A DNA stretch of 64,000 nucleotides from Promethearchaeota archaeon (GCA_048939765.1 JBHLPF010000016.1:30-64029); one strand, 5' to 3'; shown: positions 10,702 through 46,461, counted from the first letter of the stretch. Made by a program: numbers and translations. The notes: a model not told the origin generated them from the sequence alone.

Positions 10702-10804
10702 CGAGGGTTATGCTCCGTGTTCGATATCGACACTATGATGTGTTTCTATGAAATTCCCCTTTTCTGAATGATTTTCTTGTGTTTTGTTGACTTGTGAACT
10801 CATG

Positions 10805-14556: not shown

Positions 14557-14558
14557 AA

Positions 14559-16360: not shown

Positions 16361-17271
16361 GTTGCTGCACCTCCTTTTCCAACTGCCCCTCCTTTGAGTT
16401 TAGCAACAAAAGAGGCAGTGCTAGCAGTATGCTGTTGAAGCCCGATTTCCTTGGGACTAAAACCAAAAGCCAGAGCGAGGATCTGGGGGTAATGGATGAC
16501 AGGGATATTCAGGTCTTCAATACCGTACTTATTCTTGATAATCCTCTGGCCCATATCATGCTGAATGTGACATAATGAACAGACAGTGACTAGTCCGTCG
16601 ACATCAGCTTCTTTTGCGTCCAATAGGCGTTCCTTGAGCACCTCATCCGCGAGGTCATCAGCTGATCCTCTAAGAAGCCCTCCGCAGCATCTGTGTCTAC
16701 CACTATAATTCTTGCTGGTTGCTCCAATACCTTCCAAGATTTCGTCTGCAAAGGTTGGCCGCTCAGAGTACTCGATGTTGAGGATTTCGTGTGGTTTAAG
16801 CATGTGACATCCATAGCGAAGTCCAAGCTCGACACCTTCGAAATCCTTCACCATCTTGCTTCTTATGACATCAATTCCAATCTCATGGTACAAGAAGTCG
16901 ATAAGATGAAACGCGTCAACAGTTCCATTGTATCTCAATCCAGCAGGCCGGAGGATGTTGTTAATCTGTTCATGAACTCCGGGGTATTTTTTGATGGTGT
17001 GATTGACTCTCTTATATGAGTGAAAACAACCGCTGCATGGTGTAAGCATGTTCAAACCCATCTCTTCTGCTTTGGCTAGATTACGGGATGCAAAGGCTAA
17101 GCTCGTTGTGAGGTCTAGCGACTGCATCCAAAATGGCGCACAACATGTCTCATTTGGGATATCAACTATCTCAACATCAAGATGCTCCAAGACCTTGCGA
17201 GTAGCCGCTTCATACCCAAGCAATGAGCGTCTAGAGGGAACAAGACAGCCCCAGGCAATAGCCATCTTCAT
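16357..17271 (-). CDS. hdrB: heterodisulfide reductase subunit B paralog
   Basis: NETCCAPF...CSGCFHS and RHRCCGGL...CSLCHIQ (two CCG domains). ATGA overlap with hdrC. Confidence 0.9.
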   Translation of the reverse strand: MKMAIAWGCLVPSRRSLLGYEAATRKVLEHLDVEIVDIPNETCCAPFWMQSLDLTTSLAFASRNLAKAEEMGLNMLTPCSGCFHSYKRVNHTIKKYPGVHEQINNILRPAGLRYNGTVDAFHLIDFLYHEIGIDVIRSKMVKDFEGVELGLRYGCHMLKPHEILNIEYSERPTFADEILEGIGATSKNYSGRHRCCGGLLRGSADDLADEVLKERLLDAKEADVDGLVTVCSLCHIQHDMGQRIIKNKYGIEDLNIPVIHYPQILALAFGFSPKEIGLQQHTASTASFVAKLKGGAVGKGGAAT

Positions 17272-17834
17272 AATGACTCATCCCTCCCTTTGTAGAGTGC
17301 GAGTATCTTATCGAAGCCAGAGGCTTGAATGATTTTAGCGATCTCATCCATCGCAGGCTCCTGCAATGGTGGTAGGTCAAGCTTCTCTCGCATCTTGTTC
17401 ACGGCAAAGGTCATTGGAACGACTCGACCGTGCTCAACAACAGTCTTCGCCATGTCCAAATAGCCCTCAGCGGCATGTCCTTCTCTCACTGCCATGTTCC
17501 GTAGTATCGTCACTATGTCGGTGAAGTTGACCTCTTGCACACAGCGCTCCTCACATGTAAAGCAAGCAGCACACATCCAGATATCATCACTAGAGAGCAC
17601 TAATTCCTTGAGTCCTAACAAGACATTCCCTAGCACTTTTCTGGGTCTATAATCAGTCACTGCTCCGACTGGACAACCTCCACTACAGGCTCCACATTTC
17701 AGGCATCTAAGCAGCCCTTCTCCCCCAACTTGACTTGCTACCTCATACTTGAAAGCCCGCGTTACATCCTCATCCCTAATTGGAGCATCGTCTCGTTGGG
17801 TCCTGACTTCATCAGTCTGTCCCATGTTCGTCAC
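17268..17834 (-). CDS. hdrC: heterodisulfide reductase subunit C paralog
   Basis: CLKCGACSGGCP and CAACFTCEERC. GTG start with an AAGGGGT SD; an alternative ATG lies 9 nt downstream. Confidence 0.85.
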   Translation of the reverse strand: MTNMGQTDEVRTQRDDAPIRDEDVTRAFKYEVASQVGGEGLLRCLKCGACSGGCPVGAVTDYRPRKVLGNVLLGLKELVLSSDDIWMCAACFTCEERCVQEVNFTDIVTILRNMAVREGHAAEGYLDMAKTVVEHGRVVPMTFAVNKMREKLDLPPLQEPAMDEIAKIIQASGFDKILALYKGRDESL

Positions 17835-24797: not shown

Positions 24798-24869
24798 TGC
24801 AAAACACTAAATGCATAGTTGGAGAAGCTCCCACAAATCAGCGATTATTCGCAATCTCTGGGAAGTTGT

Positions 24870-25841
24870 ATGCAGAAGAAGGAGGGAGTGTTTTCAAAAC
24901 ACTTTCAGAGATTAGCTTTAGCTTTGGTATTCTATACGCTACTCTTCATTTCTGCTGGCTCTGCGTATACTCCGCATGATTTCGCTGTGGATTTGGCACG
25001 ATCAGATTTGCCTGCAATCACGACGCAATATACCGACATGGGTTCTCTAAGCTTCAGCTCAGACGAGGATCTCCGGGAGTGGGCGAATCTGAACGGTTTC
25101 GAGGGAGATGGGAGTTCTCAAAATCCTCTCTTCATTTATGATTTGAACGTGACAGGCCTGTCGGAACCTAGTCTCAGGCTATCAAATATCACTAGAACAT
25201 GGTTCATCTTTGAACATTGCATGTTCCAGACTCATATATGGTATGGTTCATTAGAACTGACTAATGTGACAAATGGCCTCTTTACCAATTGTGCTGTCTT
25301 TGGACAGGTCCTTCTCAATAACGTCTCTTTCGACGTGATTATGGATTCATATTTTGCTGATGGAGTCTATATTGATGACACAATGGATTGTGCACTGATT
25401 GGCAATTGGTTTGATGAGGATTCACATGTAGATGTCAATTCCATCTACATCATATCAACAAACGTATCCTTCTATGAGAATACTTTCCTCGGAGCATTGA
25501 ATCTCCTAAACTGTACGGGCTGTTACGTGATCTCTAATCTCTTCTTCAATTCAATTGTCGATGATGGTGTTTCAAACATATGGGACAACAACAGGTATTG
25601 GAATTATAATGGGATAGGTGTCTATATCATTCCTGGAATCGCTGAGAGCGTCGATTCAAGCCCATTATCACTTGAAACCATCACGACCCCGCTTCCCCCG
25701 ACATTCATACCCATCACTCCAACAACCACTGCTTCCAACGTTGACAATACAGTGGACTACGTTCTTTTTGGAATCACGTGCTTTGAAATTACTGTAGTGA
25801 TAGTAATAGTCATCATCAGAAGAGGTCGTGCTCAATCCTAA
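24870..25841 (+). CDS. secreted parallel-beta-helix-like protein with C-terminal TM anchor
   Basis: Signal-like MQKKEGVFSKHFQRLALALVFYTLLFISAGSA. Repetitive N/V/F-rich turns (LTNVTNGLFTNCAVFGQVLLNNVSF...). C-terminus TPTTTASN...VLFGITCFEITVVIVIVIIRRGR. Confidence 0.6.
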   Translation: MQKKEGVFSKHFQRLALALVFYTLLFISAGSAYTPHDFAVDLARSDLPAITTQYTDMGSLSFSSDEDLREWANLNGFEGDGSSQNPLFIYDLNVTGLSEPSLRLSNITRTWFIFEHCMFQTHIWYGSLELTNVTNGLFTNCAVFGQVLLNNVSFDVIMDSYFADGVYIDDTMDCALIGNWFDEDSHVDVNSIYIISTNVSFYENTFLGALNLLNCTGCYVISNLFFNSIVDDGVSNIWDNNRYWNYNGIGVYIIPGIAESVDSSPLSLETITTPLPPTFIPITPTTTASNVDNTVDYVLFGITCFEITVVIVIVIIRRGRAQS

Positions 25842-26030
25842 TAGTCAACATGAAGAAACGGAGCGGCCAATAGTCTGAATTAGTCCTAAGTCAAAGTAGG
25901 CCTCAAATTCTCGCAAAGATAGATTCTTGCCAGGAGCGGTATTAATCACCTTCCGCAAAGCCCATACTATTTATCCGTGAATGTAAAATGAAATAGTAGT
26001 AAGAATGGAACCACGGTAGGTCAGGGATTT

Positions 26031-26663
26031 ATGCTGATTCAGTCTGCTTACACATTTCCTTTGGGCATGGTGGCTATGGGCCTCGGCTTCTTGATACTCT
26101 ATCTGCTATGTTCAAGCTGTTCGGGAAAGAAACCTGAGGACATTAGTGTACTTGAAAGAGAGAGGGAAACCTACATTCCTTCAAGGGAAAAGACATGGAC
26201 AACTGAAGAAGAACGGTCAGCTCCTACAACACGGAAACCAAGAATGACCCCGTTCCCATCTGCAGCCGAAGTCACAGTAGAACCTAGTGGAGACTTCAAT
26301 CCGGAAAGAATGGATCCAGTGCTTTTTGAGAAGCTACTTGATGATATGACAAGCAGCGCTTTCACCTTTGAAATAGAAGGATTAACCACACCGGAACTGA
26401 GAGATAAGATAGACAAGGTACTCCGCGATTATGGATTCACGATTGTAAGGAATATCATTGAAGAGGAGAATGCTGAAAGAATTGAGGTAAAGATTGGCGG
26501 TTGGACCAGACAGATCAGCACCGACAAGGGACTAGGGGTTAGAATTACACTCAAGGGAGTACCAGAGAGGGAGAAGGCATTCTGTCACATGACTGTATCA
26601 GCTGAGGATAGAACATTAATCCTTCCAACCATTAGTAATCTGAGAAAGAAGATAATATCCTAG
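26031..26663 (+). CDS. hypothetical protein with N-terminal TM helix
   Basis: An ATG ORF of 210 aa with the TM segment GMVAMGLGFLILYLLCSS. No family recognised. Confidence 0.5.
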   Translation: MLIQSAYTFPLGMVAMGLGFLILYLLCSSCSGKKPEDISVLERERETYIPSREKTWTTEEERSAPTTRKPRMTPFPSAAEVTVEPSGDFNPERMDPVLFEKLLDDMTSSAFTFEIEGLTTPELRDKIDKVLRDYGFTIVRNIIEEENAERIEVKIGGWTRQISTDKGLGVRITLKGVPEREKAFCHMTVSAEDRTLILPTISNLRKKIIS

Positions 26664-26731
26664 GTCCTCAGGGCTATTAAAAAAGAAGAACGAGGAAAGG
26701 GAGCTTGCGCTCGCCTCTCCTTTCTAGTAGA

Positions 26732-27553
26732 CTATTGTCCTAGCTTCTCTGCAATTCTGGTCATCCCATAGATGTATAGAATGATCAATAGTATGGCTCC
26801 CAGATTGGAGATTCCAACAGCTCTCATATCTCCGAAGAAGTCTATTGATGTGGGGAATGAAACAGCTCCCCATGGATTAAGGAATATGTAGGCGGTCACA
26901 TTGTAGGTGATACCTAGCAGGAAGACCAAGACCATGAGAATGTAGAAAATCTTTGCCAAATCACCAAAGAACTTCCCAACTCTTTCACCGGTATACATCT
27001 TGAGGAGCTTGAATAGACCATACATGAACAGAATGATGCCAAAAGCCACAAACAAGCCGCCACCCATGTAGAGGAATGGAGGCATAATGTGGTTGATGCT
27101 CATTGTGCCGATAAAATCGTCTAGAACCCAGTTGGCATAGAAGCCGGCTGCTAGGATGATAAAGAGACCCTTCAGTATGTGAAAGATGTTCTTAATCAAA
27201 TCCCAATTGCCCATTCTTGGTTCCAGTATTGGCCCCAAGAAGAACAACAGACCCACAATGAGGATCATGACTGCGGCAGCTGCTGCTGTCGGTTCAACAA
27301 TCATCCAGACTATCGAATTGACAATGATAGCAAGACCGAGTACCATCCATGCCATGTTCTCTTGGCCTATTGCGTAGTATAGGGGGAACAATAGTCCCAA
27401 TACAAGTGCAAAGTAGTAGACCCAAACCTCTGCACCCATCCCTGATGCAAATGACGACAGTGCCGTCCACGGAGTGTAGAGCAAGTAGAACAGTGCCAAT
27501 GCAACTGCGGAAAGGTACAAGATTAGGGTCTTGAAGCCTATTTCTTCACTCAA
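26732..27553 (-). CDS. polytopic membrane protein, unknown function
   Basis: 273 aa with about 8 hydrophobic helices. TTG start supported by AGAGGTG 6-7 nt upstream. Confidence 0.6.
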   Translation of the reverse strand: MSEEIGFKTLILYLSAVALALFYLLYTPWTALSSFASGMGAEVWVYYFALVLGLLFPLYYAIGQENMAWMVLGLAIIVNSIVWMIVEPTAAAAAVMILIVGLLFFLGPILEPRMGNWDLIKNIFHILKGLFIILAAGFYANWVLDDFIGTMSINHIMPPFLYMGGGLFVAFGIILFMYGLFKLLKMYTGERVGKFFGDLAKIFYILMVLVFLLGITYNVTAYIFLNPWGAVSFPTSIDFFGDMRAVGISNLGAILLIILYIYGMTRIAEKLGQ

Positions 27554-33047: not shown

Positions 33048-36000
33048 TTACCTGCGTCGTGCCAACACCAGAACTAGGACGAGCATTGCCACCATTGCTC
33101 CAACCATAAGGTATAGCGTGGAATGACCAGTTGGTGGTTGTGGTGGTGTGGTTGAGGTATATGGAGTAGTTGTCGTTGTGCCATTGGCTTGCGCTGATAG
33201 GAATGCACTCGAATATGACACAAAGACGGGGTCGCATCGAACCTCTTCTCCTCCCCACATCTCATATCCAGCAGTCATGAACAGCATTGATGCCTCAACT
33301 GTCCAGTCAGTGACAGTCTGGCCTGCAGCTGACTCGTACATGACACTAAATGCTCCAAGAGGCGCTGTGGATGAACCGGAGATATACTCGGTCGTGAATC
33401 CATCACCACCCCAGTAGTAGGGCAGGCCGCCCATTGTTACATTGGCATATGGTGTGTCTTCTGCTCCAAACTGGTAGTATGAAGCTGCAACGCTATCTGC
33501 ATTTGTGTCTGCGACGGGAACGCCTTCAGCATGGTATGTGGTTCGAGTGGCAGTTCCAAGAATTCCAAAGAAATTCACTGCGAGGCTCCTGTCCTGCAAG
33601 ACACGGTTGTCAAACTCATTCAGAGTCCACTCACCAAACACCTGATCGACCTTGAAGGCGACAGCATGGTTCCATCTTGCGGGATCTTCAGGATCATAGG
33701 CCACCATGTCGACATTGAAACTGATGTCAAATGACATCTTCTCAACAGTTGCAGTTGATATACAGTGGTCGAAATCAGTGTTCGTTAGACTTGACACGGC
33801 CTCGTATGACTGGCGATAGTCCCAGCAGCCTCTGATGCCATCAGAGTCACGAATCTGCAGTGGATAGATGGTCACATTGACATTATAGATGGTGATCCCG
33901 AATTCCACAGGAGTATCGGGGCTGACAACTTCATTTCCGCTGTCTGCATCTGATCCCAAGGGGCGTTCGAGCTCCAATCGTTCAATGTCATCGATGAGCA
34001 CGAAGTGCGTCACCTCATCCGTGACAACCTGGCCGTCTCGTATCTGGAAGTCAGGCGCGCCATTATCCAGCTCACCCTCACCATCGTTGAACAGAAGAAG
34101 GCCTGCATACCTGGCCTTGAAACCAGCCCACTCCTGCCGCTGCGCTGTTGCGGCTACACGAAAGTGCTGTTCTGTACCCCAGGCAAACCAAGTATTGGAC
34201 CATTTGCCTGACTCAATTCCAGGTATGTCTGCATGAACGTCTGTACGGTTCTTGGACATCCATGCAATCCACTCATAGCCTGGCGCGGGTATCTCATCAA
34301 TATCATCAGCCCACAAAGTATCACGGATATCATCCATCTCAACTGGACCAATGGGTGTTCCATCTTCAGCAGAGTACCAGTAGAACATCTCACTCGCCTG
34401 ATAGTCCATGAGCGTTCTTACCACTCCCATCCACGACGTAGACCTGAACTCATCACCAATCCTTCCAGGAGATGGATCGAATTCGACTCCCACTATCATG
34501 CCTTCAAGCGTGGTGTTGCCCTCGTCGTGCCATGTTGCAGTCCTCTTGACATAGTACTGGTCATCTGTTGTGAACTCATTGCCATCAAGGTCAAGAGCAC
34601 CTTCATCGGTAACTGACCAAACCGGTTCCTCCCAAACCGGAATGTCGCCGACAATCAGTCTATGCGGGCTCCAAAGAATATTGGAGGTAATTGGCGCCTT
34701 GATTGTTTTATTGCCGATCGGGTACAAATCGTAGTCGTTGCTAGCATGGGGTGACGCATTCAAGAACTGCTCATCAAGCAAGCCTACCTCTACACTGACG
34801 TCATCGTAGATCGCTGGTGGTGTATTCGGGGAAAGAGCGAAATCAATACGACCAACCGTTAGGTCCTCGCCGATTGCAAGCTCGTATCCGAGATACTCAA
34901 CCAGATTGATTGCAGGGATCAACTGTGGTGGTGAAACCAGACCTGTATCAAGATTCTGATACTGAATGGCAACAATGGAGATATCGCCGCTGAATGGACC
35001 TACTAAATCCACTGTGAAATAGTGTCTTATAGCATATGTCCATGAGTGGGTTTCATTCTGTCCACTACCGTATCCACCAAATGAGACAGTCACATTCTGA
35101 AGGGTTCTGTTCACAAATATCCCATCTACGTCGATGAATAGTCCTGGCTCAGCTTCAAAGTTCGTGGCTTCGGAGTATAGTTCATAGGTGCCGTTTATGA
35201 TGCCTTTGGGAGCATGAACATCAAAGGTGATATTCAGTATATCATTCGGCATGGCACGTTCAGCAATATCACCATTCTGATTGAGCACATTGGCCTCAAT
35301 AAACGCATTCTTGAATGATAGCTGAACTGTGTTCTTCCGTTCAATCTCCCGACGTGGATTCAGGCTGCGTCCGTCCTGACTCACAACAGTCCAGAAGTAT
35401 GGTTGGGGTTTTACTGTGTCGCCTTCAATGTACACGTCGTCATGCATGTCAGTGTAGTCTGTGTAAGAACCTGTCCACTTGATCTCTTGCTGAGTAGGTG
35501 ATTCGTAAACAGCATTGAGAGAATAGAAGCGGCTCAAGTCTGTGGTGTAATTGAGTACAATGTCATAGGTTACGGTCCACAAATTGACAACATCCAGCCA
35601 TATCCAGTTGATATTGTCGAAATACCCAGGTACTGCATAGGCTCCAGTGCTGTTATAGACAAAGAACAACACTAGCGGGAAGTAGTCATAGTGCTTTTCT
35701 GCTGCAGAGTAGTTCCAAAGCTGATCCAAGTCCTTCAATGCCCATGGATGGTGAAGCCCATAATCTGGGTCCCAACTGAGAATCGAGAATTGGACCATAA
35801 CGTCAGCTAGAGGCTCATTGGAAACCATCCTGAAAGTGAATAGGTCGCCAACGTCTACATAGTGGAGGATATTCCCAGTGCCATCGATTACTTCTGCATA
35901 GTAGTATTCCGGCAATGCAAAATCGCTTCTTGGTACTTCCATTCCTAAGCCAATTGGGGGAGTGGCGTACTCTCCAGCTTCAGCCTTTGCCAGCCAAGAC

Positions 36001-36632
36001 GGGGTAATTGGTCGTCCCAAAGTATCTACAGCCTGTAATCCTGTCCAGAGAATCGCGTTCACTACCTCTTCGGTGAACATCATCGCAAAGACAAGATCAT
36101 AGGACCTCTTCACGGTGTCATTCTCATAAACACAATATGCCTCATAGAGTTCCATGAAACCGAGACCCGTTGGAACCACTGCATCGTGGACATAATTGAA
36201 GCTAATACTATTCCATGCTCCAGAAGTGACGTTATACTCCATGCCGAATGCTGTCCTTTGGTGAGGTTGCGTTGCCCCCCAGAAACCGACTGCATCTAGA
36301 GTTGAAGCAGAGCTGAGAAACTCCCAAGGAATTGAGATATTCACTAGAAGCTGATCATCAGCATTGACTCTAAATCCATTCTCAGCGGTTGAGGTGCCAT
36401 TCCAGACCCAGTCTTCAGCATAGCCTATCCAAACCGTAGGCTGAGGACCAAACACCCATTCAGAATGTTCGTCATCATGACTGAAGCTTTCGGTCTCGTT
36501 AACGACCTGCCAGCCGACACGAAGTTCAGGATCACTTTCTCCTTGTGCACTGACAATCCTTGTTCCAGCGAATGCCAGAGCAGAACCGAGCAAAAGAACA
36601 AGCATGACAAATCCAGTTTTTCCTTTCTTCAT
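33048..36632 (-). CDS. 1194-aa secreted surface protein with Thr/Pro stalk and C-terminal TM anchor
   Basis: Signal peptide MKKGKTGFVMLVLLLGSALAFAG and GAGGTGA SD. Many N-x-S/T sequons. C-terminus GTTTTTPYTSTTPPQPP...LYLMVGAMVAMLVLVLVLARRR. Confidence 0.75.
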   Translation of the reverse strand: MKKGKTGFVMLVLLLGSALAFAGTRIVSAQGESDPELRVGWQVVNETESFSHDDEHSEWVFGPQPTVWIGYAEDWVWNGTSTAENGFRVNADDQLLVNISIPWEFLSSASTLDAVGFWGATQPHQRTAFGMEYNVTSGAWNSISFNYVHDAVVPTGLGFMELYEAYCVYENDTVKRSYDLVFAMMFTEEVVNAILWTGLQAVDTLGRPITPSWLAKAEAGEYATPPIGLGMEVPRSDFALPEYYYAEVIDGTGNILHYVDVGDLFTFRMVSNEPLADVMVQFSILSWDPDYGLHHPWALKDLDQLWNYSAAEKHYDYFPLVLFFVYNSTGAYAVPGYFDNINWIWLDVVNLWTVTYDIVLNYTTDLSRFYSLNAVYESPTQQEIKWTGSYTDYTDMHDDVYIEGDTVKPQPYFWTVVSQDGRSLNPRREIERKNTVQLSFKNAFIEANVLNQNGDIAERAMPNDILNITFDVHAPKGIINGTYELYSEATNFEAEPGLFIDVDGIFVNRTLQNVTVSFGGYGSGQNETHSWTYAIRHYFTVDLVGPFSGDISIVAIQYQNLDTGLVSPPQLIPAINLVEYLGYELAIGEDLTVGRIDFALSPNTPPAIYDDVSVEVGLLDEQFLNASPHASNDYDLYPIGNKTIKAPITSNILWSPHRLIVGDIPVWEEPVWSVTDEGALDLDGNEFTTDDQYYVKRTATWHDEGNTTLEGMIVGVEFDPSPGRIGDEFRSTSWMGVVRTLMDYQASEMFYWYSAEDGTPIGPVEMDDIRDTLWADDIDEIPAPGYEWIAWMSKNRTDVHADIPGIESGKWSNTWFAWGTEQHFRVAATAQRQEWAGFKARYAGLLLFNDGEGELDNGAPDFQIRDGQVVTDEVTHFVLIDDIERLELERPLGSDADSGNEVVSPDTPVEFGITIYNVNVTIYPLQIRDSDGIRGCWDYRQSYEAVSSLTNTDFDHCISTATVEKMSFDISFNVDMVAYDPEDPARWNHAVAFKVDQVFGEWTLNEFDNRVLQDRSLAVNFFGILGTATRTTYHAEGVPVADTNADSVAASYYQFGAEDTPYANVTMGGLPYYWGGDGFTTEYISGSSTAPLGAFSVMYESAAGQTVTDWTVEASMLFMTAGYEMWGGEEVRCDPVFVSYSSAFLSAQANGTTTTTPYTSTTPPQPPTGHSTLYLMVGAMVAMLVLVLVLARRR

Positions 36633-40041: not shown

Positions 40042-41316
40042 ATGCCGGACATTTCTAGTGACATCACGGCGAATGCCGAATCATTAGGAATTAACCAAGC
40101 TAGCTCAGGCCTTCTTGGTCTGAGCAGAAGCCTCTGGCGTCTAGCAATCGTGGTCGGCATCGCACAGTTTTCCGTTAGCATTTGGAATTGGGAGTTTAGC
40201 ATCTTTCTCGAAACATTTCTTGAACCTTGGCAAATGGGCTTGACCTTTTCAACCAGTACGCTAGCTAGTTTGATTGGCTATTTTCTATCTGGTACAATTG
40301 CTGATCGTATAGGTCGCCGGAAAACCATGATGTTTGCATTCTTGCCAGTGATATTGGGAGTCCTTTCACTAGCGAATTATCCTGTGTGGCCACTCATCCC
40401 TCTTGAGTATGCGTCTTTCATGTTTGGGTGGAGCTTCATAATAATTATGAGTAGAGCGATACCAGCTGATGAGATTGAGAGGACTGGGGGACACAACGCT
40501 GCGCGAAGATTCACAATGGTTCTCATGCCTGCCTTTCTCGTCGACGGTATCAGCCCTGCGGTTGGAGCTACACTGCTGAATTTGGGCCTAGGTTCCAGAG
40601 ACCTTCACATCATGGCAGGCATAGGAGCAATGATTGCTTGTGTTGCTGCCTATTTCCTTATTCAAGAATCCTTGGCAGGAGAGATAATTGAGAGGACAAG
40701 GGGAGGTCCACTAATCTCCTTCAGACGTTTGGGTTCCAACTTCTGGAAACTGACCATAGGCATGTTCACATTTATCTTCTTCTTCAATTCAGCCCTAGCA
40801 TATTATGGAAATATCATTGTAGGTGAATGGGGACTCGATGAAACAACTTTTGGATATGCATGGAGCGGGTTCTCCATAGCCATGGTATTACTTATGCATA
40901 CTATCAGTGGCTATGTTGATAGAGGCTTGAAGAAATCACTATTCCTGGCTGTCCTGGGAAATGGTATAATAATCGCAGTATTCTCATTTGGAAGCGGAGC
41001 TTGGACGCTTTTCCTTCTCAACTTTATCTGGGCAGTTCCGGTAGTAATGTGGATAGGTGCTGAAAGAACCTTAGTTGTTCATGATATCGATGAAGAGAAT
41101 AAGGGGAGGGCACTTGGCACATATCAATTCATTTCGAGTTCTACGAATCTAGTTGCAGCACCCTTTGGCGCCTATATCTGGACCATTTCCGGAAGCCTCA
41201 GGACCCTCTGGCTAATCTCAGGCATCGGTGGCATAATCGCAGCCATGTTTCTAGGTGCCGCATTGAAGTCAATGACATCAGAGGGCGACGCAAATGTTCT
41301 CCCTGACTCGGATTGA
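40042..41316 (+). CDS. MFS-type transporter (paralog A)
   Basis: 424 aa with about 12 TM helices and the MFS loop motif GTIADRIGRRKTM. By eye about 40-45 percent identical to 45223..46461. Confidence 0.8.
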   Translation: MPDISSDITANAESLGINQASSGLLGLSRSLWRLAIVVGIAQFSVSIWNWEFSIFLETFLEPWQMGLTFSTSTLASLIGYFLSGTIADRIGRRKTMMFAFLPVILGVLSLANYPVWPLIPLEYASFMFGWSFIIIMSRAIPADEIERTGGHNAARRFTMVLMPAFLVDGISPAVGATLLNLGLGSRDLHIMAGIGAMIACVAAYFLIQESLAGEIIERTRGGPLISFRRLGSNFWKLTIGMFTFIFFFNSALAYYGNIIVGEWGLDETTFGYAWSGFSIAMVLLMHTISGYVDRGLKKSLFLAVLGNGIIIAVFSFGSGAWTLFLLNFIWAVPVVMWIGAERTLVVHDIDEENKGRALGTYQFISSSTNLVAAPFGAYIWTISGSLRTLWLISGIGGIIAAMFLGAALKSMTSEGDANVLPDSD

Positions 41317-41381: not shown

Positions 41382-43298
41382 ATGGCGAAAGAAGGCTCAC
41401 GTATCACACGCAGGCTCAAGAAAACAGGTGAGCTTCTTCTAGGTGGAGCCAAACAGCAGGTCACAGGCTACAAGAGCCGTTTTGACAGTCTAAGCGGAAT
41501 CTATGACGATTTTCTGTCTGGATATATCAATCAGTATCCAGAGGGAAAGGCAGATCCTTCATTTGTGGACCGATTCTTTGGCAAGCGTGAACTGTCCTTC
41601 GCGGGTATTGATGGTACTATATGCAAGTATGATGTGTTCGACCTTATCATCTTCTTCGCTGGAGCTTACTCCTCGCACGGCGTAGCCCGAATTGATGACT
41701 CAGGGAATATTGATTTGGAATATGAGGAGCAATACCTCGAGAGGGGCATAGGTCTGTCGAGTGTGCTTCCCATTTATATCAATGAGGTACCCCTCGTAGA
41801 TCAGACAATTCTCTCACGAGCTGAAGATGGCAGTGTGGACCACACCGTAGCTCACACTGACTCTTGGATAATCGACAATTCCGCATTTGCGGATTACATG
41901 ATGACATTGTCAGAGTTCTATCTCGCTTACCGACTGGTCAGCGAGGAGAATCCTGTTGATATCCTTCTTATGGATCGGATCTGCTCTTCTGAAATCTCTT
42001 CATCCTATGCAGAAACCTCTGACTTCAGAATCGATATTGAAAAGGAGTGTGGACTTGTTGGACAAGATGTTGATGGCAGACCGTTTAGTGCTACTGAGTG
42101 GGTTCAAGCGAGAAGGCTCCTCGGGAATTTGCAGCTTGGCACTCCCCCTGCAAGGGGAGAATACCTTCTTCCGAGGATTATGGCAGAACTAAGTATCGAG
42201 AGCTCTGGATTAACGAGAGATGAGCTCTCCATGCGAATGGGAATTGATTCAGAACCAAGACGGGAACGACTTGACAAGGAGCTTGAGTCGGCAATCCGGG
42301 GAAAGGGAGCCTCCAAAGGAATTGTTGTTCGCAAGGGAAAGCACTTCAGTCTGCGGCCTGAATATCGTGATCTCAGAGGACGATTAGAAACCTTGGTTGT
42401 AGAAACTTGTGAACGTCTTTTCTCCGAGGATTCCTCAATAACATATGATGAGAGATTCAAGGTGGGCAAACGATGGCTGACAACCAATGACCTGTCATTC
42501 CTTGCCTTGGCCTCTCTATACCTGACCATCGAGAAATCCTGGCAGAATAAGACCCTTCTAATTGGAGTTGCTAAGGATACTTCTGCAAGAGACCTCAAGA
42601 GACAAGTGATACCGGTTTTGAATCATCTTGGCATATCTGACAAAGGATTCATTGGAGAAAAAGGCGACACACCAGATACTGACAGGATGATTCTGCAGTG
42701 GGTCTCTCTCCAAGAGAGGGAGCGTTTGAAGACGCCATGGGCTACCATTGAATATGACACAGCCTTCAAGACGATAGTACCACATTTTGATAGAAAGCCC
42801 GGACTCGTGTCAGGGGCCAGAAGGAATCAAATCTCACTAGAGAAGACTTTCGTCAAGTCATATTTCCAGCTATGCGAAGCAAAATCGAACCCTCGTTTGC
42901 GGAGCAATGTGCTTCTTTATGATAGGCTGGTATATCCCGGATTTGATGATTTGGATTCAACCTTACTTGAGCTGAAGCATGACTATGAGAGCAAAGCGGA
43001 ATACCCAGAACCCATTGAAGCTGTTCTCTATTGCAGTGTTGAGAATCCAATACAATCATTCATTATCGCATTGTTCAAAGCCATGACAAGTGCGAGCATT
43101 CCCGAGTTATTCGGTCATCTGAAGCCACTCTTTGTTGCAGACAAGGTGGCAAAGTATAATTTCAGTCAATTCAAGAATATGGTCGAGAGCGCTGGAAGTT
43201 GGCTCATCAATCGACCTGAGTTGCGTGAGTTTCTATTCTATCTAAGCACATTTCGAGAAAGGAGGTCTGATGTTGAACAGTCACGAAGACGTACCTAG
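41382..43298 (+). CDS. NurA-like nuclease, enlarged (638 aa) with an inserted winged-helix-like segment
   Basis: NurA-like motifs in order: FAGIDGT, ILLMDRICS, LIGVAKDTSARDL, PDTDRMILQWV. The central segment GLTRDELSMRMGI...GIVVRKGKHFSL looks like a wHTH. Confidence 0.6.
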   Translation: MAKEGSRITRRLKKTGELLLGGAKQQVTGYKSRFDSLSGIYDDFLSGYINQYPEGKADPSFVDRFFGKRELSFAGIDGTICKYDVFDLIIFFAGAYSSHGVARIDDSGNIDLEYEEQYLERGIGLSSVLPIYINEVPLVDQTILSRAEDGSVDHTVAHTDSWIIDNSAFADYMMTLSEFYLAYRLVSEENPVDILLMDRICSSEISSSYAETSDFRIDIEKECGLVGQDVDGRPFSATEWVQARRLLGNLQLGTPPARGEYLLPRIMAELSIESSGLTRDELSMRMGIDSEPRRERLDKELESAIRGKGASKGIVVRKGKHFSLRPEYRDLRGRLETLVVETCERLFSEDSSITYDERFKVGKRWLTTNDLSFLALASLYLTIEKSWQNKTLLIGVAKDTSARDLKRQVIPVLNHLGISDKGFIGEKGDTPDTDRMILQWVSLQERERLKTPWATIEYDTAFKTIVPHFDRKPGLVSGARRNQISLEKTFVKSYFQLCEAKSNPRLRSNVLLYDRLVYPGFDDLDSTLLELKHDYESKAEYPEPIEAVLYCSVENPIQSFIIALFKAMTSASIPELFGHLKPLFVADKVAKYNFSQFKNMVESAGSWLINRPELREFLFYLSTFRERRSDVEQSRRRT

Positions 43299-45144
43299 CC
43301 ATTTATTCACCGATTTCGACGGAACATTTGATGGAAGACTTGCCAGAGTCATTCCTGTAGCTGCAAACTACACCTCAGAGTGGGCAGGCTCAGCCGCAAG
43401 GTATGACTGCAGAATCAAGATAAAGTACAACAAGGAACTGATGGCCCAGCTTGAAGAAGGCATGATGATAGCGGTCCGCAATTTCAAGGGGCAGGCGAAG
43501 TCAGCCAAGAGGAAAGGAGTCCAGCGTTTCACAGTGATGGTCATTAGTAAAGTATGGCCCCTACACTATGGACTTGGAGGTATTAGTGACAGCCATTATT
43601 ATCCAATGCAGATGGAGATGATAGAGCAAGCAGTACCAGATTGGGACACTGATGACCAGGCAACAATGATGGTTCATCTCACAGCAATTCCGATCAACTA
43701 TGATCTCATTGTTCCAGAGAAAGGAGAGATAGAATTCAGGAAGGGATTTTCATATCCTCTTATTGGGGATAGGGTACATGTCATAAATCTGGAGACGGTA
43801 GACCTCATCTATAATGGAAGAGTTAGAGAGACTCTGGGGTTGAAGAAGAAGGCGACATCATCTGATCCCAGGAAAGACCCGCGGGTTGGTATTCTCAGGA
43901 TGTTCATGGATTCTGAGAAGGAGGTTCCTGTTCTTGTGGACCTCTATAAGCTTCTCAGATACCACTTCGGAGTATTCTCATTCACTGGAGGCGGAAAAAG
44001 CAACCTTCTCTCAAATCTATTCAGAAGAATCCTCTACCATACCAAAGACACCAAACTTGTTATCTTCGATGTCAGTTGCGAGTACCCATTCCTCTTGTCG
44101 GATGTGCTATCGGACGCCAAAATTCAGGCTAGGGTAATTGTTGAAGAAGAACCAAGAACGGCTGAGGACTTCGCTAGGTCGATTGTAAAACCACGCGACT
44201 TCGAGGACGACCCACGAGCAAATACCGCGCTTAAATCACTCTATGATATGGACTTGGTGACTTTCTATAATCTCCCTCAATCACGGATGCCAACATACCG
44301 TTCTGTTCTCGATGACATCAATGATCTACAAAACGATAACTCATCAAAGCCAACCTATGTCCAAGCACTTGATCAAGTTAAAGCAGCTGTAATGGGATGG
44401 ATGGACGCCTGGGATAAGTCAGAAAGCGATGCACTTGATGACAAGTTCGTTGATATGCTCCATAAAGAAGCGGTTACAGCTGTAGAGGAGTTTTCAGTTT
44501 ATGCCAAATCTGGAGTCGCGGCATGGGCCAGTACAAGAGGGAAACTGAAAGATGTCATTGCACGGACCAAGAGTGGCAAGAAGAAGGGCATGACTGTAAA
44601 GGATATGCTCAAGATGATGAGCGGCCCTGAACGCGTCATCTGCATATCGATTGCAGATCCAGACATTATCAGAGATATCGTAATTCGTATGACAGGTTCC
44701 GCCTTGAAGTATAGGAAGAGAAGCTTTGAGATAAAGCCGCAGATACTATTCGTATTCGATGAAGCTCAGGAGTTCATTCCTTCGAACGCTACTGGTCAAG
44801 TAGCGCGGTGCAGCAGTGCTATAGAGAGGCTATTACGCCAAGGAAGGAAGTATGGACTGGGGGGAACGATTGCCACACAGAGAATCGCATATCTAAATAC
44901 AAACATCATGCAACAATTGCATACCTTCTTCGTGGGAACATTGCCCAGACCGTATGATCGAACAGTCGTTAGCAGTTCATTCCAAATCGACCTCAGTATT
45001 CTCGACAAGACACTCGAGTTCCCTCCAGGATCATGGCTTCTATCAAGCTATATAGCAATGGGCATTGATAACGTGCCCGTGTTTGTAAAAGCCGATAACT
45101 CTGAGGATGCATTGCAAGACCATATTTCAGCCATAACTGAATAG
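43270..45144 (+). CDS. HerA/FtsK-like hexameric ATPase (DUF87-type)
   Basis: Walker A FSFTGGGKSNLLSNL, Walker B ILFVFDEAQEFIP, GGTIATQR, and an N-terminal barrel-like region. GGAGG SD. 29-nt overlap with the NurA-like gene. Confidence 0.8.
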   Translation: MLNSHEDVPSHLFTDFDGTFDGRLARVIPVAANYTSEWAGSAARYDCRIKIKYNKELMAQLEEGMMIAVRNFKGQAKSAKRKGVQRFTVMVISKVWPLHYGLGGISDSHYYPMQMEMIEQAVPDWDTDDQATMMVHLTAIPINYDLIVPEKGEIEFRKGFSYPLIGDRVHVINLETVDLIYNGRVRETLGLKKKATSSDPRKDPRVGILRMFMDSEKEVPVLVDLYKLLRYHFGVFSFTGGGKSNLLSNLFRRILYHTKDTKLVIFDVSCEYPFLLSDVLSDAKIQARVIVEEEPRTAEDFARSIVKPRDFEDDPRANTALKSLYDMDLVTFYNLPQSRMPTYRSVLDDINDLQNDNSSKPTYVQALDQVKAAVMGWMDAWDKSESDALDDKFVDMLHKEAVTAVEEFSVYAKSGVAAWASTRGKLKDVIARTKSGKKKGMTVKDMLKMMSGPERVICISIADPDIIRDIVIRMTGSALKYRKRSFEIKPQILFVFDEAQEFIPSNATGQVARCSSAIERLLRQGRKYGLGGTIATQRIAYLNTNIMQQLHTFFVGTLPRPYDRTVVSSSFQIDLSILDKTLEFPPGSWLLSSYIAMGIDNVPVFVKADNSEDALQDHISAITE

Positions 45145-45222: not shown

Positions 45223-46461
45223 ATGGCAAGCCCAGAGAAAGCTGCACGAGAAGAAGCAAATCAAGCTAGGGCTCCAACCCGTGAGATTTTGGGCCTCGGT
45301 TCCGATCTGTGGAGAGCTGCCATTCTTCTCGGTCTAGCTCAGTTTTCAATCGGCCTATGGAATTGGCAATTCAGTGTGCATCTTGACACCTTTCTAGAGC
45401 CATGGCAAATAGGGCTGACTTATTCAGCCAGACCAGCTGCAATGCTTCTGGGAGGATATCTCTCGGGTATGATGGGGGATTTTTTTGGTAGAAAGAAGAC
45501 AATGGCGATTAGCCTTGTGCCAATTTCATTCGGACTCACCGCACTTTCTTTCTATCCAGTTTGGCCAATGATCCCAATTCAGTTTGGTTTTGTAATGTTT
45601 GGAATGAGTTCTGTGCGTCTAATGCAAAGGGCGATTCCAGCAGATGTTGTCCAGGCTCAACGGAGCCAAGACGCTGCACGCAAGTTCATGATGATCATGG
45701 TACCCATGTGGGCTATGGATGGAATCAGTCCGTTATTGGGAACATTCATACTGAGTATTGGATTTCAACCTCAGCATCTCTACCTTATAGCAGCAGTAGG
45801 CGGAGCATTCACCTGTGTCGCGATTCTACTCACAGTCAAGGAGTCGCTTGGAGATGAGATAATCAAGAAAGCGAAACAAGGTCCAAAAGTACCAATTCGA
45901 AGTCTTGGAGCTAATTTCTGGTTGTTTTCAGGGGGTATGCTCATGTACTTCTTTTTCTACAGCTCAGCAATATCGTATCTAGGAGTCCTCTCCGTTGATG
46001 AATGGGGCGTTGATATTTCGGTCTACGGAGTTTCTTGGAGTGTATTCTCAATCACAGGCGCACTAATTATGTATTCAATGAGCGGCCTTGCTGATAAGAA
46101 TCTAAAAGCTGCGCTTATTGCCGCAGTCTTTGGAAATGGGTTGTCATTCATTGGTCTCAGCGTAGGTACAGGTGATTTATGGCTCATTGTCTTGAATATA
46201 CTCTGGGCATTTCCTTTCATGGTATGGTTGGGGACTGTGAGGAGCATCGTGGCAAGTACTGTATCAGAAGAGCTCAAGGGTCGAGCGTTTGGCACCTATG
46301 ACATGGTCCTTGGGTTGACTGCTGTGTTTGCCACGTCATTCGGAGCACTTCTCTGGCAAATTTCTGGAAGCCTAAGACTCGTTTGGATGCTCGCAGGAAT
46401 TGGGATGATTCTGGTTACGGTTGTGATAGCGTTTATTATACGACGAATTGAGATTGACTAA
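45223..46461 (+). CDS. MFS-type transporter (paralog B)
   Basis: 412 aa with GMMGDFFGRKKTM and a CAGGAGGA SD. Collinear similarity with 40042..41316 (LWR.AI..G.AQFS...WNW.FS..L.TFLEPWQ.GLT.S). Confidence 0.8.
   Translation: MASPEKAAREEANQARAPTREILGLGSDLWRAAILLGLAQFSIGLWNWQFSVHLDTFLEPWQIGLTYSARPAAMLLGGYLSGMMGDFFGRKKTMAISLVPISFGLTALSFYPVWPMIPIQFGFVMFGMSSVRLMQRAIPADVVQAQRSQDAARKFMMIMVPMWAMDGISPLLGTFILSIGFQPQHLYLIAAVGGAFTCVAILLTVKESLGDEIIKKAKQGPKVPIRSLGANFWLFSGGMLMYFFFYSSAISYLGVLSVDEWGVDISVYGVSWSVFSITGALIMYSMSGLADKNLKAALIAAVFGNGLSFIGLSVGTGDLWLIVLNILWAFPFMVWLGTVRSIVASTVSEELKGRAFGTYDMVLGLTAVFATSFGALLWQISGSLRLVWMLAGIGMILVTVVIAFIIRRIEID

What the first reader, a model, noticed from the sequence alone, without database searches (positions are those of the whole stretch)
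41382..45144. Stand-alone enlarged NurA-like nuclease + HerA-like ATPase cassette without Mre11/Rad50
The 624-aa protein has FtsK/HerA-type motifs: GGGKSN Walker A, FVFDEAQEF Walker B, ATQR and an N-terminal barrel-like region. The overlapping upstream 638-aa protein carries NurA-like motifs in canonical order (GIDGT, LLMDR, GVAKDTS, DTDRMIL). It is far longer than the NurA sizes I remember (roughly 330-450 aa) and contains a central winged-helix-like insert (GLTRDELSMRMGI...VVRKGKHFSL). In archaea herA-nurA normally sit with mre11-rad50 for end resection. Here the pair is isolated between transporter genes. HerA-family ATPases paired with nuclease or other effectors are a recurring architecture of prokaryotic anti-phage systems, so this could be a defence-type module rather than the housekeeping resection machine.
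Basis: partly seen in the sequence, partly recalled or inferred. Interest (0 to 1): 0.65.

Follow-up and report, generated by a model that had tools for sequence, protein, structure and literature searches.

The report
Core long-NurA/HerA operon in Thorarchaeota
An Asgard (Thorarchaeota-type) genome carries a tightly coupled two-gene operon for a HerA DNA-pumping ATPase and an unusually long, so far unannotated NurA-type nuclease with a built-in winged-helix domain. Here it behaves as a stable core gene pair, most likely for processing DNA ends, while its distant relatives are wired to DNA-modification genes like restriction systems.

Summary
ORFs 41382-43298 (638 aa) and 43270-45144 (624 aa) overlap by 29 nt, and every cited motif is present. 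The 624-aa protein is a bona fide HerA. The 638-aa protein matches no Pfam, NCBIfam, PADLOC or PDB sequence model directly. Its AlphaFold model's ten best PDB matches are all NurA. Broader family profiles align collinearly with P. furiosus NurA across its catalytic motifs, and two distant members pass Pfam's NurA threshold. A winged-helix insert is supported.

The defence reading is not supported for this locus. In Thorarchaeota and Bathyarchaeia the pair looks vertically inherited. It is syntenic among metabolic genes, under strong purifying selection (dN/dS 0.02-0.07), and has no modification or defence neighbours. No Mre11/Rad50 lies nearby.

There the long-NurA/HerA pair sits beside DpdA-like TGT, DpdC-like DUF6884 or C5-methyltransferase genes in 41 of 53 informative loci.

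Most likely function: an ATP-driven DNA-end helicase-nuclease used for chromosome maintenance. This is a new variant of a known kind. The main open question is whether these genomes also carry a canonical NurA/HerA.

The parts
41382..43298 (+). Gene for the 638-aa 'long NurA' nuclease: an RNase-H-like NurA fold with a winged-helix insert
   Evidence: ORF. AF2 model pTM 0.82. Top 10 Foldseek PDB hits are all NurA, E 1e-8 to 1e-5. Family profile aligns to P. furiosus NurA at E 0.0086. 148 full-length homologues found.
41604..41618 (+). Motif I, GIDGT (D77). It aligns with P. furiosus NurA AVDGS, chain D71, which is D51 if the construct carries a 20-residue N-terminal tag.
   Evidence: D77 and G78 are invariant in 35 diverse members.
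41907..41978 (+). Helix alpha1 with invariant E178 (LSEFYLAY), then strand beta4 with LLMDR (D198). YLAY...LLD aligns with P. furiosus NurA YLAYRKL...ILMD (chain D146, native D126 on the same assumption).
   Evidence: The E178 assignment as catalytic glutamate is inferred from RNase-H-like topology.
42162..42359 (+). Winged-helix (wHTH) insert, residues ~261-326. It is the least conserved segment of the protein.
   Evidence: H-H-H-beta-beta topology with block pLDDT mostly 86-94. Local fold hits to OhrR, ScpB and MotA. Weak profile hits to GntR-like, SelB, TFIIE-beta and IclR wHTH proteins. Mean pairwise identity 0.42 against 0.60-0.69 for the core.
42564..42767 (+). Second half of the catalytic core: GVAKDTS (K398, D399), DTDRMIL (D432, D434), EYDTAF (E457, D459)
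   Evidence: D399, D434 and D459 are invariant and K398 is >=90 % conserved across the broad family. Coordinates.
43110..43154 (+). C-terminal motif FGHLKPLFVADKVAK. D587 aligns with the first His of the LAHH motif in P. furiosus NurA (chain H431, native H411 on the tag assumption), giving an inferred D-E-D-D active site.
   Evidence: Two independent profiles give the same alignment register. G578 is invariant; D587 and K591 are >=90 % conserved.
43261..43298 (+). Translational-coupling junction: GGAGGT ribosome-binding-like site and the HerA ATG (43270) inside the 3' end of the NurA-like ORF, a 29-nt overlap
   Evidence: An overlap of 26-29 nt is found in five of the eight Thorarchaeota orthologues compared; the larger values in the other three reflect the script picking the first in-frame start codon.
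43270..45144 (+). Gene for the 624-aa HerA-family hexameric DNA translocase/ATPase
   Evidence: Pfam DUF87 3e-13, above cutoff. PADLOC and NCBIfam HerA models. PDB HerA sequence hits. Fold hits are HerA structures apart from two Setx chains.
43306..43785 (+). N-terminal all-beta region of HerA (residues ~13-172), probably the HAS-barrel
   Evidence: Beta-strands at 22-31, 43-52, 66-71, 85-98, 132-148, 155-158 and 168-172 in the AF2 model. Full-length fold alignments to HerA. No Pfam HAS-barrel hit and only moderate model confidence.
43987..44004 (+). HerA Walker A (GGGKSN, K243)
   Evidence: invariant in 22 orthologues.
44749..44883 (+). HerA Walker B (FVFDEAQEF, D497/E498), the RQGRKYG segment and the ATQR motif (R538)
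40042..41316 (+). Upstream MFS transporter gene. It is a conserved neighbour in Thorarchaeota; there is no evidence that it is functionally part of the module.

Best explanation
The two genes encode a two-subunit, ATP-driven DNA-end helicase-nuclease of the HerA-NurA type that serves as a chromosomal housekeeping machine in Thorarchaeota and Bathyarchaeia.

Shown:
- The genes are translationally coupled.
- HerA has intact Walker A, Walker B and arginine motifs.
- The partner has the NurA fold with a conserved acidic active site (D77, E178, D198, D587, plus D399, D434, D459).
- The pair looks vertically inherited, keeps its genomic position, and is under strong purifying selection.

Inferred from the solved S. 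solfataricus, T. kodakarensis and D. radiodurans HerA-NurA complexes:
- A HerA hexamer loads at a free DNA end and pumps duplex DNA through its pore into a NurA dimer docked on the HAS-barrel face. The dimer then digests one or both strands.
- This would generate 3' tails for RadA-dependent recombination or clear broken and linear DNA.
- The winged-helix insert, absent from characterised NurAs, most likely adds a DNA-gripping or end-recognition element, or a docking site for partners.
- The operon works without being encoded next to mre11-rad50.
For: Fold and homology:
- Foldseek top 10 hits are all NurA, E 1e-8 to 1e-5, then a gap to E 0.07.
- Two independent profiles align collinearly to P. 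furiosus NurA at three motifs.
- 20 of 35 family members touch Pfam NurA, and two exceed its gathering score.
- The catalytic residues are invariant or >=90 % conserved over 20-57 % identity to the window protein.

HerA: DUF87 above cutoff, conserved ATPase motifs, and the best fold hit is the T. kodakarensis HerA of the HerA-NurA complex.

Coupling:
- 29-nt overlap with an internal GGAGGT; overlap of 26-29 nt in most orthologues compared.
- HerA lies directly downstream in 24 of 30 Thorarchaeota and 51 of 55 Bathyarchaeia loci. The misses are contig ends, except L042 and L054.

Core behaviour:
- 148 homologue clusters, essentially all Thorarchaeota.
- 292 GTDB species genomes encode a relative.
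- Synteny is conserved down to 53 % identity.
- In the loci compared, NurA identity and identity of the adjacent GDE gene fall together.
- Thorarchaeota and Bathyarchaeia are each monophyletic, with 100 and 99 of 100 bootstraps.
- dN/dS is 0.02-0.07 for both genes.
- Neighbours are metabolic genes.
- No modification-gene homologue occurs in 1.2 Mb of Thorarchaeota and Bathyarchaeia loci.
- No relatives appear in phage or viral collections.
Against: - There is no functional or genomic link to Mre11-Rad50.
- HerA scores only 38-50 bits on all curated HerA equivalogs, repair and antiphage alike, against cutoffs of 800-970. It is therefore not an orthologue of the characterised resection HerA.
- Its best profile match is the 'Type III CRISPR coevolved' HerA. 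The sister clades of the NurA tree are restriction-modification-like, so the nearest relatives point to conflict systems rather than repair.
- The wHTH insert and the His-to-Asp change at the fourth active-site position are absent from characterised NurAs.
- I could not determine whether these genomes also contain a canonical HerA-NurA. If they do, this pair needs a different job.
Confidence: 0.5

Rival explanations
1. It is a chromosomally fixed, modification-independent anti-invader nuclease. The HerA-long-NurA complex destroys incoming linear or otherwise marked foreign DNA, with the wHTH acting as a sensor. On this view it is a stripped-down or ancestral relative of the modification-linked restriction cassettes found in its sister clades. 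A dual repair-and-defence role like that of RecBCD would fall between this reading and the best explanation.
For: - Sister clades of the same two-gene module sit next to DpdA-like TGT, DpdC-like DUF6884 or C5 methyltransferase genes in 41 of 53 informative loci, and in clear defence islands.
- The domain architecture, including the wHTH insert, is shared by all clades.
- The window's HerA matches best the PADLOC 'Type III coevolved' HerA family, to which the sister-clade HerAs fully belong.
- The wHTH is the fastest-evolving segment.
- One Bathyarchaeia-type locus (L004) lies beside a BsaWI-type R-M pair.
Against: - The genomic position is stable and distribution within Thorarchaeota and Bathyarchaeia looks lineage-wide. 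Defence genes are usually patchy and mobile.
- dN/dS is 0.02-0.07.
- No modification partner was found, so self-protection would have to rely on something else.
- No defence genes are nearby.
- The wHTH is only moderately divergent, not hypervariable.
Confidence: 0.27
2. It is a HerA-driven DNA-processing machine for some other chromosomal transaction, such as replication-fork or stalled-intermediate processing, chromosome resolution or segregation, or uptake and processing of environmental DNA. The nuclease would trim the DNA that HerA translocates.
For: - FtsK-HerA ATPases serve in segregation, conjugation and DNA import. There is a weak CedD hit of 29 bits.
- The pair is consistently flanked by a membrane transporter in Thorarchaeota.
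- It is a core, conserved pair without Mre11-Rad50 linkage.
Against: - Neither protein has predicted membrane or secretion features in any search.
- The CedD score is far below its cutoff of 600.
- The MFS neighbour is not conserved in Bathyarchaeia.
- A NurA-fold nuclease coupled to HerA is so far documented only in end resection or degradation.
Confidence: 0.13
3. The upstream protein is not a nuclease at all. It would be a structural or regulatory HerA partner that merely retains an RNase-H-like scaffold.
For: - No direct hit to any NurA sequence model.
- The fourth metal ligand differs from that of P. furiosus NurA.
- Foldseek TM-scores are modest, 0.35-0.55 normalised to the target.
Against: - D77, E178 and D399 are invariant and D198 and D587 are >=90 % conserved across very divergent members. 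This is hard to explain without catalysis.
- Asp is a standard alternative to His at this position in RNase-H-like nucleases (general knowledge).
- Strong purifying selection acts on the whole gene.
Confidence: 0.05

Closest known systems
Archaeal HerA-NurA end-resection complex (S. solfataricus 2YGK/4D2I, P. furiosus 3TAI, T. kodakarensis 9X1L/9X1M)
   Same: - Adjacent herA and nurA genes.
- NurA RNase-H-like fold with a motif I Asp, a helix Glu and a beta4 Asp.
- HerA with DUF87 core and Walker motifs.
- These structures are the best structural matches for both proteins.
   Different: - Gene order here is nurA-like then herA, with no mre11-rad50 nearby.
- The nuclease is ~200-300 residues longer, carrying a wHTH insert, an extra beta-rich region and a C-terminal helical region.
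- The fourth active-site ligand is Asp rather than His.
- There is no direct Pfam NurA hit, and HerA scores 38-44 bits against cutoffs of 800-970 for the repair equivalogs.
Bacterial NurA-HerA (Deinococcus radiodurans 7F6D/7WRX; Thermus thermophilus)
   Same: A stand-alone two-gene helicase-nuclease operon not linked to mre11-rad50, in a chromosomal location.
   Different: These are much weaker structural matches: D. radiodurans NurA E 0.33 and D. radiodurans HerA E 5e-8 to 2e-6. The bacterial NurA is short and lacks the wHTH.
'Type III coevolved' HerA/NurA (Shah et al. 2018 clusters 57/58; PADLOC PDLC01055)
   Same: This is the best-scoring HerA profile for the window protein, 147 bits, E 2.5e-43. 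The sister-clade HerAs are full-length members at 209-332 bits.
   Different: - The window HerA matches only partially.
- There is no CRISPR array or cas gene in the window.
- The long NurA matches no PADLOC model.
Dpd 7-deazaguanine restriction-modification system (DpdA/B/C plus DpdD-K)
   Same: Applies only to the sister clades. A TGT-family DpdA-like gene and a YaaA/DpdC-like DUF6884 domain sit directly beside the long-NurA/HerA pair (DpdC = PF03883 according to PMC12839542; the DUF6884-YaaA relationship according to PMC11701544).
   Different: - The window locus has no such genes.
- Even in the sister clades the DpdA and DpdC similarity is weak: 28-40 bits against a cutoff of 200 for DpdA.
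- The restriction part there is NurA/HerA rather than DpdD-K.
HerA-effector anti-phage systems (SIR2-HerA/Nezha, DUF4297-HerA) and TdpAB
   Same: A hexameric HerA paired with a nuclease or NADase effector. The HerA fold matches about as well as the repair HerAs do, E 1e-10 to 1e-8. TdpB is a weak fold hit to the NurA-like model, E 0.11.
   Different: - The effector here has a NurA fold, not SIR2 or DUF4297.
- HerA is below the antiphage equivalog cutoffs.
- The locus is not in a defence island.

Membership tests
NurA nuclease family (Pfam PF09376; archaeal DSB-repair NurA) | NurA-type RNase-H-like fold | tested here: met
   AF2 model pTM 0.82. The ten best PDB matches are all NurA, E 1e-8 to 1e-5, probability 1.00, and the next hit is at E 0.07.
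NurA nuclease family (Pfam PF09376; archaeal DSB-repair NurA) | Score at or above the Pfam NurA gathering threshold (21 bits) | tested here: not met
   The window protein has no hit at E <= 1. Membership is only transitive: distant members P0328 (27.4 bits) and P0364 (24.2 bits) pass, and 20 of 35 members hit at E <= 1.
NurA nuclease family (Pfam PF09376; archaeal DSB-repair NurA) | Catalytic residues in canonical order: motif I Asp, helix Glu, beta4 Asp, C-terminal His | tested here: met
   D77 and D198 align with P. furiosus NurA chain residues D71 and D146 in two independent profile alignments. E178 is invariant in helix alpha1. The fourth position is Asp (D587) instead of His. The Glu assignment rests on topology, not on a residue-level superposition.
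NurA nuclease family (Pfam PF09376; archaeal DSB-repair NurA) | Encoded next to, and co-inherited with, herA | tested here: met
   29-nt overlap in the window. HerA is adjacent in 75 of 85 Thorarchaeota and Bathyarchaeia loci; the misses are mostly contig ends. HerA was found in 76 and the long NurA in 75 of 84 distant loci.
NurA nuclease family (Pfam PF09376; archaeal DSB-repair NurA) | Dimer docking on the HerA hexamer; Mn-dependent 5'-3' exo/endonuclease activity | not testable with these tools
   This needs multimer modelling or biochemistry.
HerA helicase (FtsK-HerA superfamily) | HerA central (DUF87) domain above the Pfam cutoff, with Walker A, Walker B and arginine motifs | tested here: met
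   50.8 bits against a cutoff of 23.2. GGGKSN, FVFDEAQEF and ATQR are invariant or nearly so in 22 orthologues.
HerA helicase (FtsK-HerA superfamily) | N-terminal HAS-barrel | tested here: inconclusive
   The model shows an all-beta N-domain at residues 22-172 and full-length fold alignments to HerA. However, the model pLDDT is only 67 and there is no Pfam HAS-barrel hit.
DSB-repair HerA equivalogs (NCBIfam NF040819, NF040937) | Score at or above the curated cutoff (970 / 800 bits) | tested here: not met
   43.9 and 37.6 bits.
Archaeal mre11-rad50-herA-nurA resection operon | Physical linkage to mre11 and rad50 | tested here: not met
   The window has no Mre11/Rad50 domains or hallmark motifs. 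No such family appears among the recurrent neighbours in 85 related loci. Their presence elsewhere in the genome was not testable.
Anti-phage HerA systems (NCBIfam NF042943/NF042944; PADLOC systems) | Score at or above the curated cutoff, and a cognate effector recognised by PADLOC | tested here: not met
   46-50 bits against cutoffs of 800-850. The partner protein has no PADLOC hit.
Type III CRISPR-associated HerA/NurA (Shah 2018 clusters 57/58) | Full-length match to the cluster-57 HerA model and adjacency to type III cas genes | tested here: not met
   Partial match of 147 bits, against 209-332 bits for sister-clade HerAs. No tandem repeats and no cas domains in the window.
Restriction-modification-like / defence-island module | Adjacent DNA-modification gene, and a variable, island-like neighbourhood with patchy distribution | tested here: not met
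   No homologue of the TGT, DUF6884 or C5-MTase partners occurs in the window or in 86 Thorarchaeota and Bathyarchaeia-type loci, 1.2 Mb in total. Synteny is conserved. The sister clades do meet this criterion, 41 of 53 loci.

The most novel reading that the evidence does not exclude
The long-NurA/HerA module is a previously undescribed family with two arms.

One arm is a new restriction-modification-like defence cassette. In it, a NurA/HerA helicase-nuclease is the effector, and a DpdA-like TGT with a DpdC-like DUF6884 domain, or alternatively a C5 methyltransferase, marks self DNA.

The other arm, which includes the window's pair, has been fixed in the core genome of Thorarchaeota and Bathyarchaeia without any modification gene. 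It would act either as these lineages' replacement for the canonical resection machine or as a permanently installed RecBCD-like repair-and-defence nuclease. [quoted passage not shown]
Probability: 0.3. Interest if true: 0.65.

Novelty: new variant of a known kind. Interest (0 to 1): 0.45.

Why it matters
- A large protein family is currently annotated only as 'hypothetical protein', yet it is a NurA-type nuclease with a new architecture. The family comprises about 395 clusters at 50 % identity and occurs in at least 292 archaeal species genomes.
- Recognising it fills a gap in the DNA-repair and recombination inventory of Thorarchaeota (Asgard) and Bathyarchaeia, two abundant uncultured sediment lineages.
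- Its sister clades point to a possibly new modification-dependent defence system that uses NurA/HerA as the effector. Comparing the two arms could show how a helicase-nuclease moves between immunity and housekeeping.
- For the window itself the finding is a solid annotation improvement rather than a surprise in kind.

Tried and rejected
1. Direct profile searches of the 638-aa protein found nothing: Pfam, PADLOC and NCBIfam at E <= 1, PDB by phmmer, and PDB with the Thorarchaeota-only profile A1. Only the broader profiles A2 and A5 and the predicted structure revealed NurA.
2. Fold comparison could not assign HerA to a 'repair' or 'defence' clade. Repair and antiphage HerAs score within about two orders of magnitude of each other, and the model is only moderate, pLDDT 67. 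I could not build a proper phylogeny with canonical outgroups because no tool returns canonical NurA or HerA sequences.
3. Searches for viral carriers were all negative: GenBank phages by tblastn with two family members, IMG/VR with A3 and with P0395, and BFVD by fold.
4. The first genome scan with A2 failed because the alignment was too diverse. I repeated it with A3.
5. Literature searches found nothing specific on HerA/NurA/Mre11/Rad50 in Asgard archaea, Thorarchaeota or Bathyarchaeota, nor on any NurA-7-deazaguanine link. The Asgard asCOG paper is not held.
6. I could not test whether a canonical mre11-rad50-herA-nurA set exists elsewhere in the genome. Only the window and +/-7-10 kb flanks of related loci are readable.
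7. The apparent double copy in MAG EU527 is a mixed-strain bin, not paralogy: the copies are 93 % identical and sit in identical contexts.
8. Two scripts failed, one with an empty-list error and one by timeout, before the tree ran.
9. I considered a CRISPR-accessory reading based on the PADLOC model name and rejected it. The window has no array and no cas genes.

Full report
**What is in the window**

Two co-directional ORFs, 41382-43298 (638 aa) and 43270-45144 (624 aa), overlap by 29 nt. A GGAGGT ribosome-binding-like sequence lies just upstream of the second start codon, inside the first ORF. The close homologues show the window comes from a Thorarchaeota-type Asgard archaeon.

The surrounding 64 kb is core metabolism:
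- two Hdr/Mvh-like gene sets and NiFe hydrogenase subunits;
- PEPCK and aldehyde:ferredoxin oxidoreductase;
- glycogen debranching enzyme and a metallo-beta-lactamase;
- an FrhB-like protein, an NTPase and Mtd.

The window has no tRNA genes, no tandem repeats or CRISPR array, no cas or defence domains, no Mre11/Rad50 hallmark motifs, and no second HerA/NurA copy. The two MFS transporter genes flanking the pair are 44 % identical paralogues.

**HerA**

The 624-aa protein scores above the Pfam cutoff on the HerA central domain (DUF87), at 50.8 bits against 23.2. It matches eight solved HerA sequences. Its ATPase motifs GGGKSN, FVFDEAQEF and ATQR are invariant or nearly so in 22 orthologues.

The AlphaFold model is only moderate (pLDDT 67). 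It shows an N-terminal all-beta region followed by the ATPase core. Its 49 significant fold hits are HerA structures apart from two Setx helicase chains, and T. kodakarensis HerA from the HerA-NurA complex ranks first.

The protein is not an orthologue of any curated HerA type:
- It scores 38-50 bits on the NCBIfam repair and antiphage equivalogs, whose cutoffs are 800-970.
- Repair and defence HerAs are equally close by fold.
- Its best profile is PADLOC PDLC01055, 'HerA, Type III coevolved', at 147 bits with a partial match. That model comes from cluster 57 of Shah et al. 2018.

**The 638-aa protein is a NurA-fold nuclease**

Direct sequence searches are blank. Four lines of evidence nevertheless identify it:

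- *Fold.* The AlphaFold model is confident (pTM 0.82). Its ten best PDB matches are all NurA structures from T. kodakarensis, S. solfataricus and P. furiosus, with E 1e-8 to 1e-5 and probability 1.00. The next hit is at E 0.07.
- *Family size.* An exhaustive HMMER search shows a large family: 395 clusters at 50 % identity with E <= 0.001, mostly 580-640 aa.
- *Profile alignment.* A profile of 35 diverse members reaches P. furiosus NurA (E 0.0086) in three collinear pieces: AIDG with AVDGS, YLAY...LLD with YLAYRKL...ILMD, and G-H-x-PL-x-ADK with GGYLRPLQLAHH. An independent profile of distant members gives the same register.
- *Transitive Pfam link.* Twenty of the 35 members touch Pfam NurA, and two exceed its gathering score. 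In P0328 the model is split around a large insert.

The PDB construct appears to carry a 20-residue tag (my inference from the sequence lengths). On that basis, D77 corresponds to D51, D198 to D126, and D587 to H411, the residues I recall as the P. furiosus NurA metal ligands. E178 is invariant in the helix between strands beta3 and beta4. By RNase-H-like topology it is the catalytic glutamate; this is an inference.

Conservation supports a working active site. D77, E178, D399, D434 and D459 are invariant, and D198, K398 and D587 are at least 90 % conserved, in members only 20-57 % identical to the window protein.

The winged-helix insert at residues ~261-326 rests on three observations:
- the model's H-H-H-beta-beta topology at high pLDDT;
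- local fold hits to OhrR, ScpB and MotA;
- weak profile hits to GntR-like, SelB, TFIIE-beta and IclR winged helices.

It is the least conserved segment but is not hypervariable, with mean pairwise identity 0.42 against 0.60-0.69 for the catalytic core.

**How the pair behaves in genomes**

The 638-aa protein has 148 homologue clusters. The listed hits range from 53 to 95 % identity, and nearly all that carry an organism name are Thorarchaeota. A scan of one genome per GTDB species found relatives in 292 genomes. The best 80 are about 30 Thorarchaeota-type and about 50 Bathyarchaeia genomes.

HerA lies immediately downstream on the same strand in 24 of 30 Thorarchaeota and 51 of 55 Bathyarchaeia loci. 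The misses are contig ends, except L042 and L054.

Synteny is strong:
- In Thorarchaeota the order GDE, MFS, pair, (GTP cyclohydrolase II), FrhB-like, NTPase, PKD protein, TackOD1, Mtd holds down to 53 % identity. In the loci compared, NurA identity and GDE identity fall together.
- In a large Bathyarchaeia subclade the pair is followed by the pyruvate:ferredoxin oxidoreductase beta, alpha, delta and gamma genes.

Against close relatives, dN/dS is 0.02-0.07 for both genes. The overlap is 26-29 nt in most of the orthologues compared. This is the behaviour of a vertically inherited core operon, not of a defence island.

**The wider family tells a different story**

Members only 20-30 % identical sit in conflict-type contexts:
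- a Heimdallarchaeota locus with a C5 methylase, an HhH-GPD glycosylase and a SIR2-nSTAND protein;
- an integrase-bearing element with HNH, two TGT genes and MazG;
- a defence island with a C5 methylase, Eco57I, a PstI-type endonuclease, GmrSD, Vsr and an SLFN-type helicase;
- another locus with a C5 methylase, HhH-GPD and SIR2.

Eighty further metagenomic loci show a recurrent cassette: a stand-alone DUF6884 gene, the long NurA, HerA, and then one of the following:
- a TGT-DUF6884 fusion;
- a plain TGT;
- a C5 methyltransferase;
- sometimes UvrD, GIY-YIG or a SIR2-ORC/Cdc6-like gene.

Of 53 loci with enough flanking sequence, 41 have a modification gene within three genes of the pair.

DUF6884 is distantly related to YaaA (PMC11701544). 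DpdC is a member of the YaaA family, DUF328/PF03883 (PMC12839542). The partners hit the DpdA and DpdC models only weakly. The HerAs of these loci are full-length members of the PADLOC 'Type III coevolved' family at 209-332 bits.

As a reverse control, none of these partner families has any homologue in the window or in the 86 Thorarchaeota and Bathyarchaeia-type loci, 1.2 Mb in total.

A neighbour-joining tree of 87 long-NurA proteins puts Thorarchaeota plus Bathyarchaeia in one clade with 100 of 100 bootstraps. A long branch separates that clade from the modification-linked clades, whose subclades track the partner type. The tree is unrooted because I had no canonical NurA outgroup.

**Interpretation**

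The most likely reading (about 0.5) is that the window's pair is a housekeeping DNA-end helicase-nuclease of the HerA-NurA type.
- Shown: intact ATPase and nuclease motifs, translational coupling, and core-gene behaviour.
- Inferred: the pumping-and-cutting mechanism, drawn from the solved HerA-NurA complexes, and a DNA-gripping or recognition role for the winged-helix insert.

The main rival (about 0.27) is a chromosomally fixed, modification-independent anti-invader nuclease, possibly with a dual role like that of RecBCD. The conflict-system character of the nearest relatives supports it. Synteny, purifying selection and the lack of any modification partner count against it.

Other DNA transactions (about 0.13) and a non-catalytic partner (about 0.05) are less likely.

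**Novelty and limits**

The system is a new variant of a known kind. It is a HerA-NurA helicase-nuclease, but the NurA is long, contains a winged helix, has an inferred D-E-D-D active site, and is invisible to current annotation models. It is a core gene pair in two major uncultured archaeal lineages. I found no description of it, or of the modification-linked sister cassettes, in the held literature. The general concept of HerA-anchored capture systems with winged-helix sensors and nucleases has been published.

The key untested point is whether these genomes also encode a canonical NurA/HerA and Mre11/Rad50. The tools gave access only to the window and to local flanks of related loci.

Noticed in passing
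L087-L170 (related loci, not the window); for example L122:4054-9736, L140:186-5578, L089:6942-14117: Distant relatives of the pair (20-30 % identity) form a recurrent cassette: stand-alone DUF6884, long NurA, HerA, then a TGT-DUF6884 fusion, a TGT or a C5 methyltransferase. UvrD, GIY-YIG or SIR2-ORC/Cdc6-like genes often accompany it. A modification gene lies within three genes in 41 of 53 informative loci. This looks like an undescribed Dpd-like or R-M-like defence system that uses NurA/HerA as the effector.
   Followed up: partly
L088:1-17833: One distant pair lies inside what looks like an integrated or viral element: an integrase at the end, many small ORFs, HNH, two TGT genes and MazG. 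No related sequence was found in GenBank phages, IMG/VR or BFVD.
   Followed up: partly
L050, L063, L042, L054, L037, L074 (Bathyarchaeia loci): Exceptions to tight pairing. There are 2-4 kb of extra ORFs between the NurA-like gene and herA in L050 and L063. No herA lies within the flank in L042 and L054; L054 shares its upstream genes with L063. herA appears split into two ORFs in L037 and L074. These may be insertions, decay or assembly errors.
   Followed up: no
L045 versus L057: A contig binned as 'Candidatus Dormiibacterota bacterium' carries a Bathyarchaeia-type pair (41 % identity), and its upstream ORFs have the same sizes and order as those of a Bathyarchaeia contig from the same study. 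This is probably a mis-binned archaeal contig rather than a bacterial occurrence.
   Followed up: no
L171 and L172 (GCA_004524595.1, locus-tag prefix EU527): One Thorarchaeota MAG contains two copies of the whole syntenic region. The NurA-like proteins are 93 % identical and their neighbours are the same, which indicates a mixed-strain bin rather than gene duplication.
   Followed up: yes
window 40042-41316 and 45223-46461: The MFS transporter genes on either side of the pair are paralogues (44 % identity). The downstream copy is present only in the closest relatives (L007-L009), so it is a recent lineage-specific insertion between herA and the FrhB-like gene.
   Followed up: partly
window 4571-17834 (- strand): Two paralogous heterodisulfide-reductase-like sets: a CCG-domain protein plus a 4Fe-4S protein at 9069-10546 and again at 16357-17834. 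Each sits next to very large FAD/NAD(P) 4Fe-4S flavoproteins of 913 and 1129 aa. An MvhD-like protein (15893-16360) is nearby, and NiFe-hydrogenase subunits lie at 1662-3898.
   Followed up: no
window 33048-36632 (-): A 1194-aa protein with an N-terminal signal-like segment, a C-terminal Thr/Pro-rich stretch and a hydrophobic anchor, and no Pfam match. It is a conserved neighbour in Thorarchaeota (fam9, 15 loci), at 36-82 % identity.
   Followed up: no
window 24819-27553: Three consecutive ORFs of 340, 210 and 273 aa with no Pfam family at E <= 0.001.
   Followed up: no
An offline motif scan found no Mre11, Rad50 or ABC-signature hallmarks in them.
   Followed up: partly
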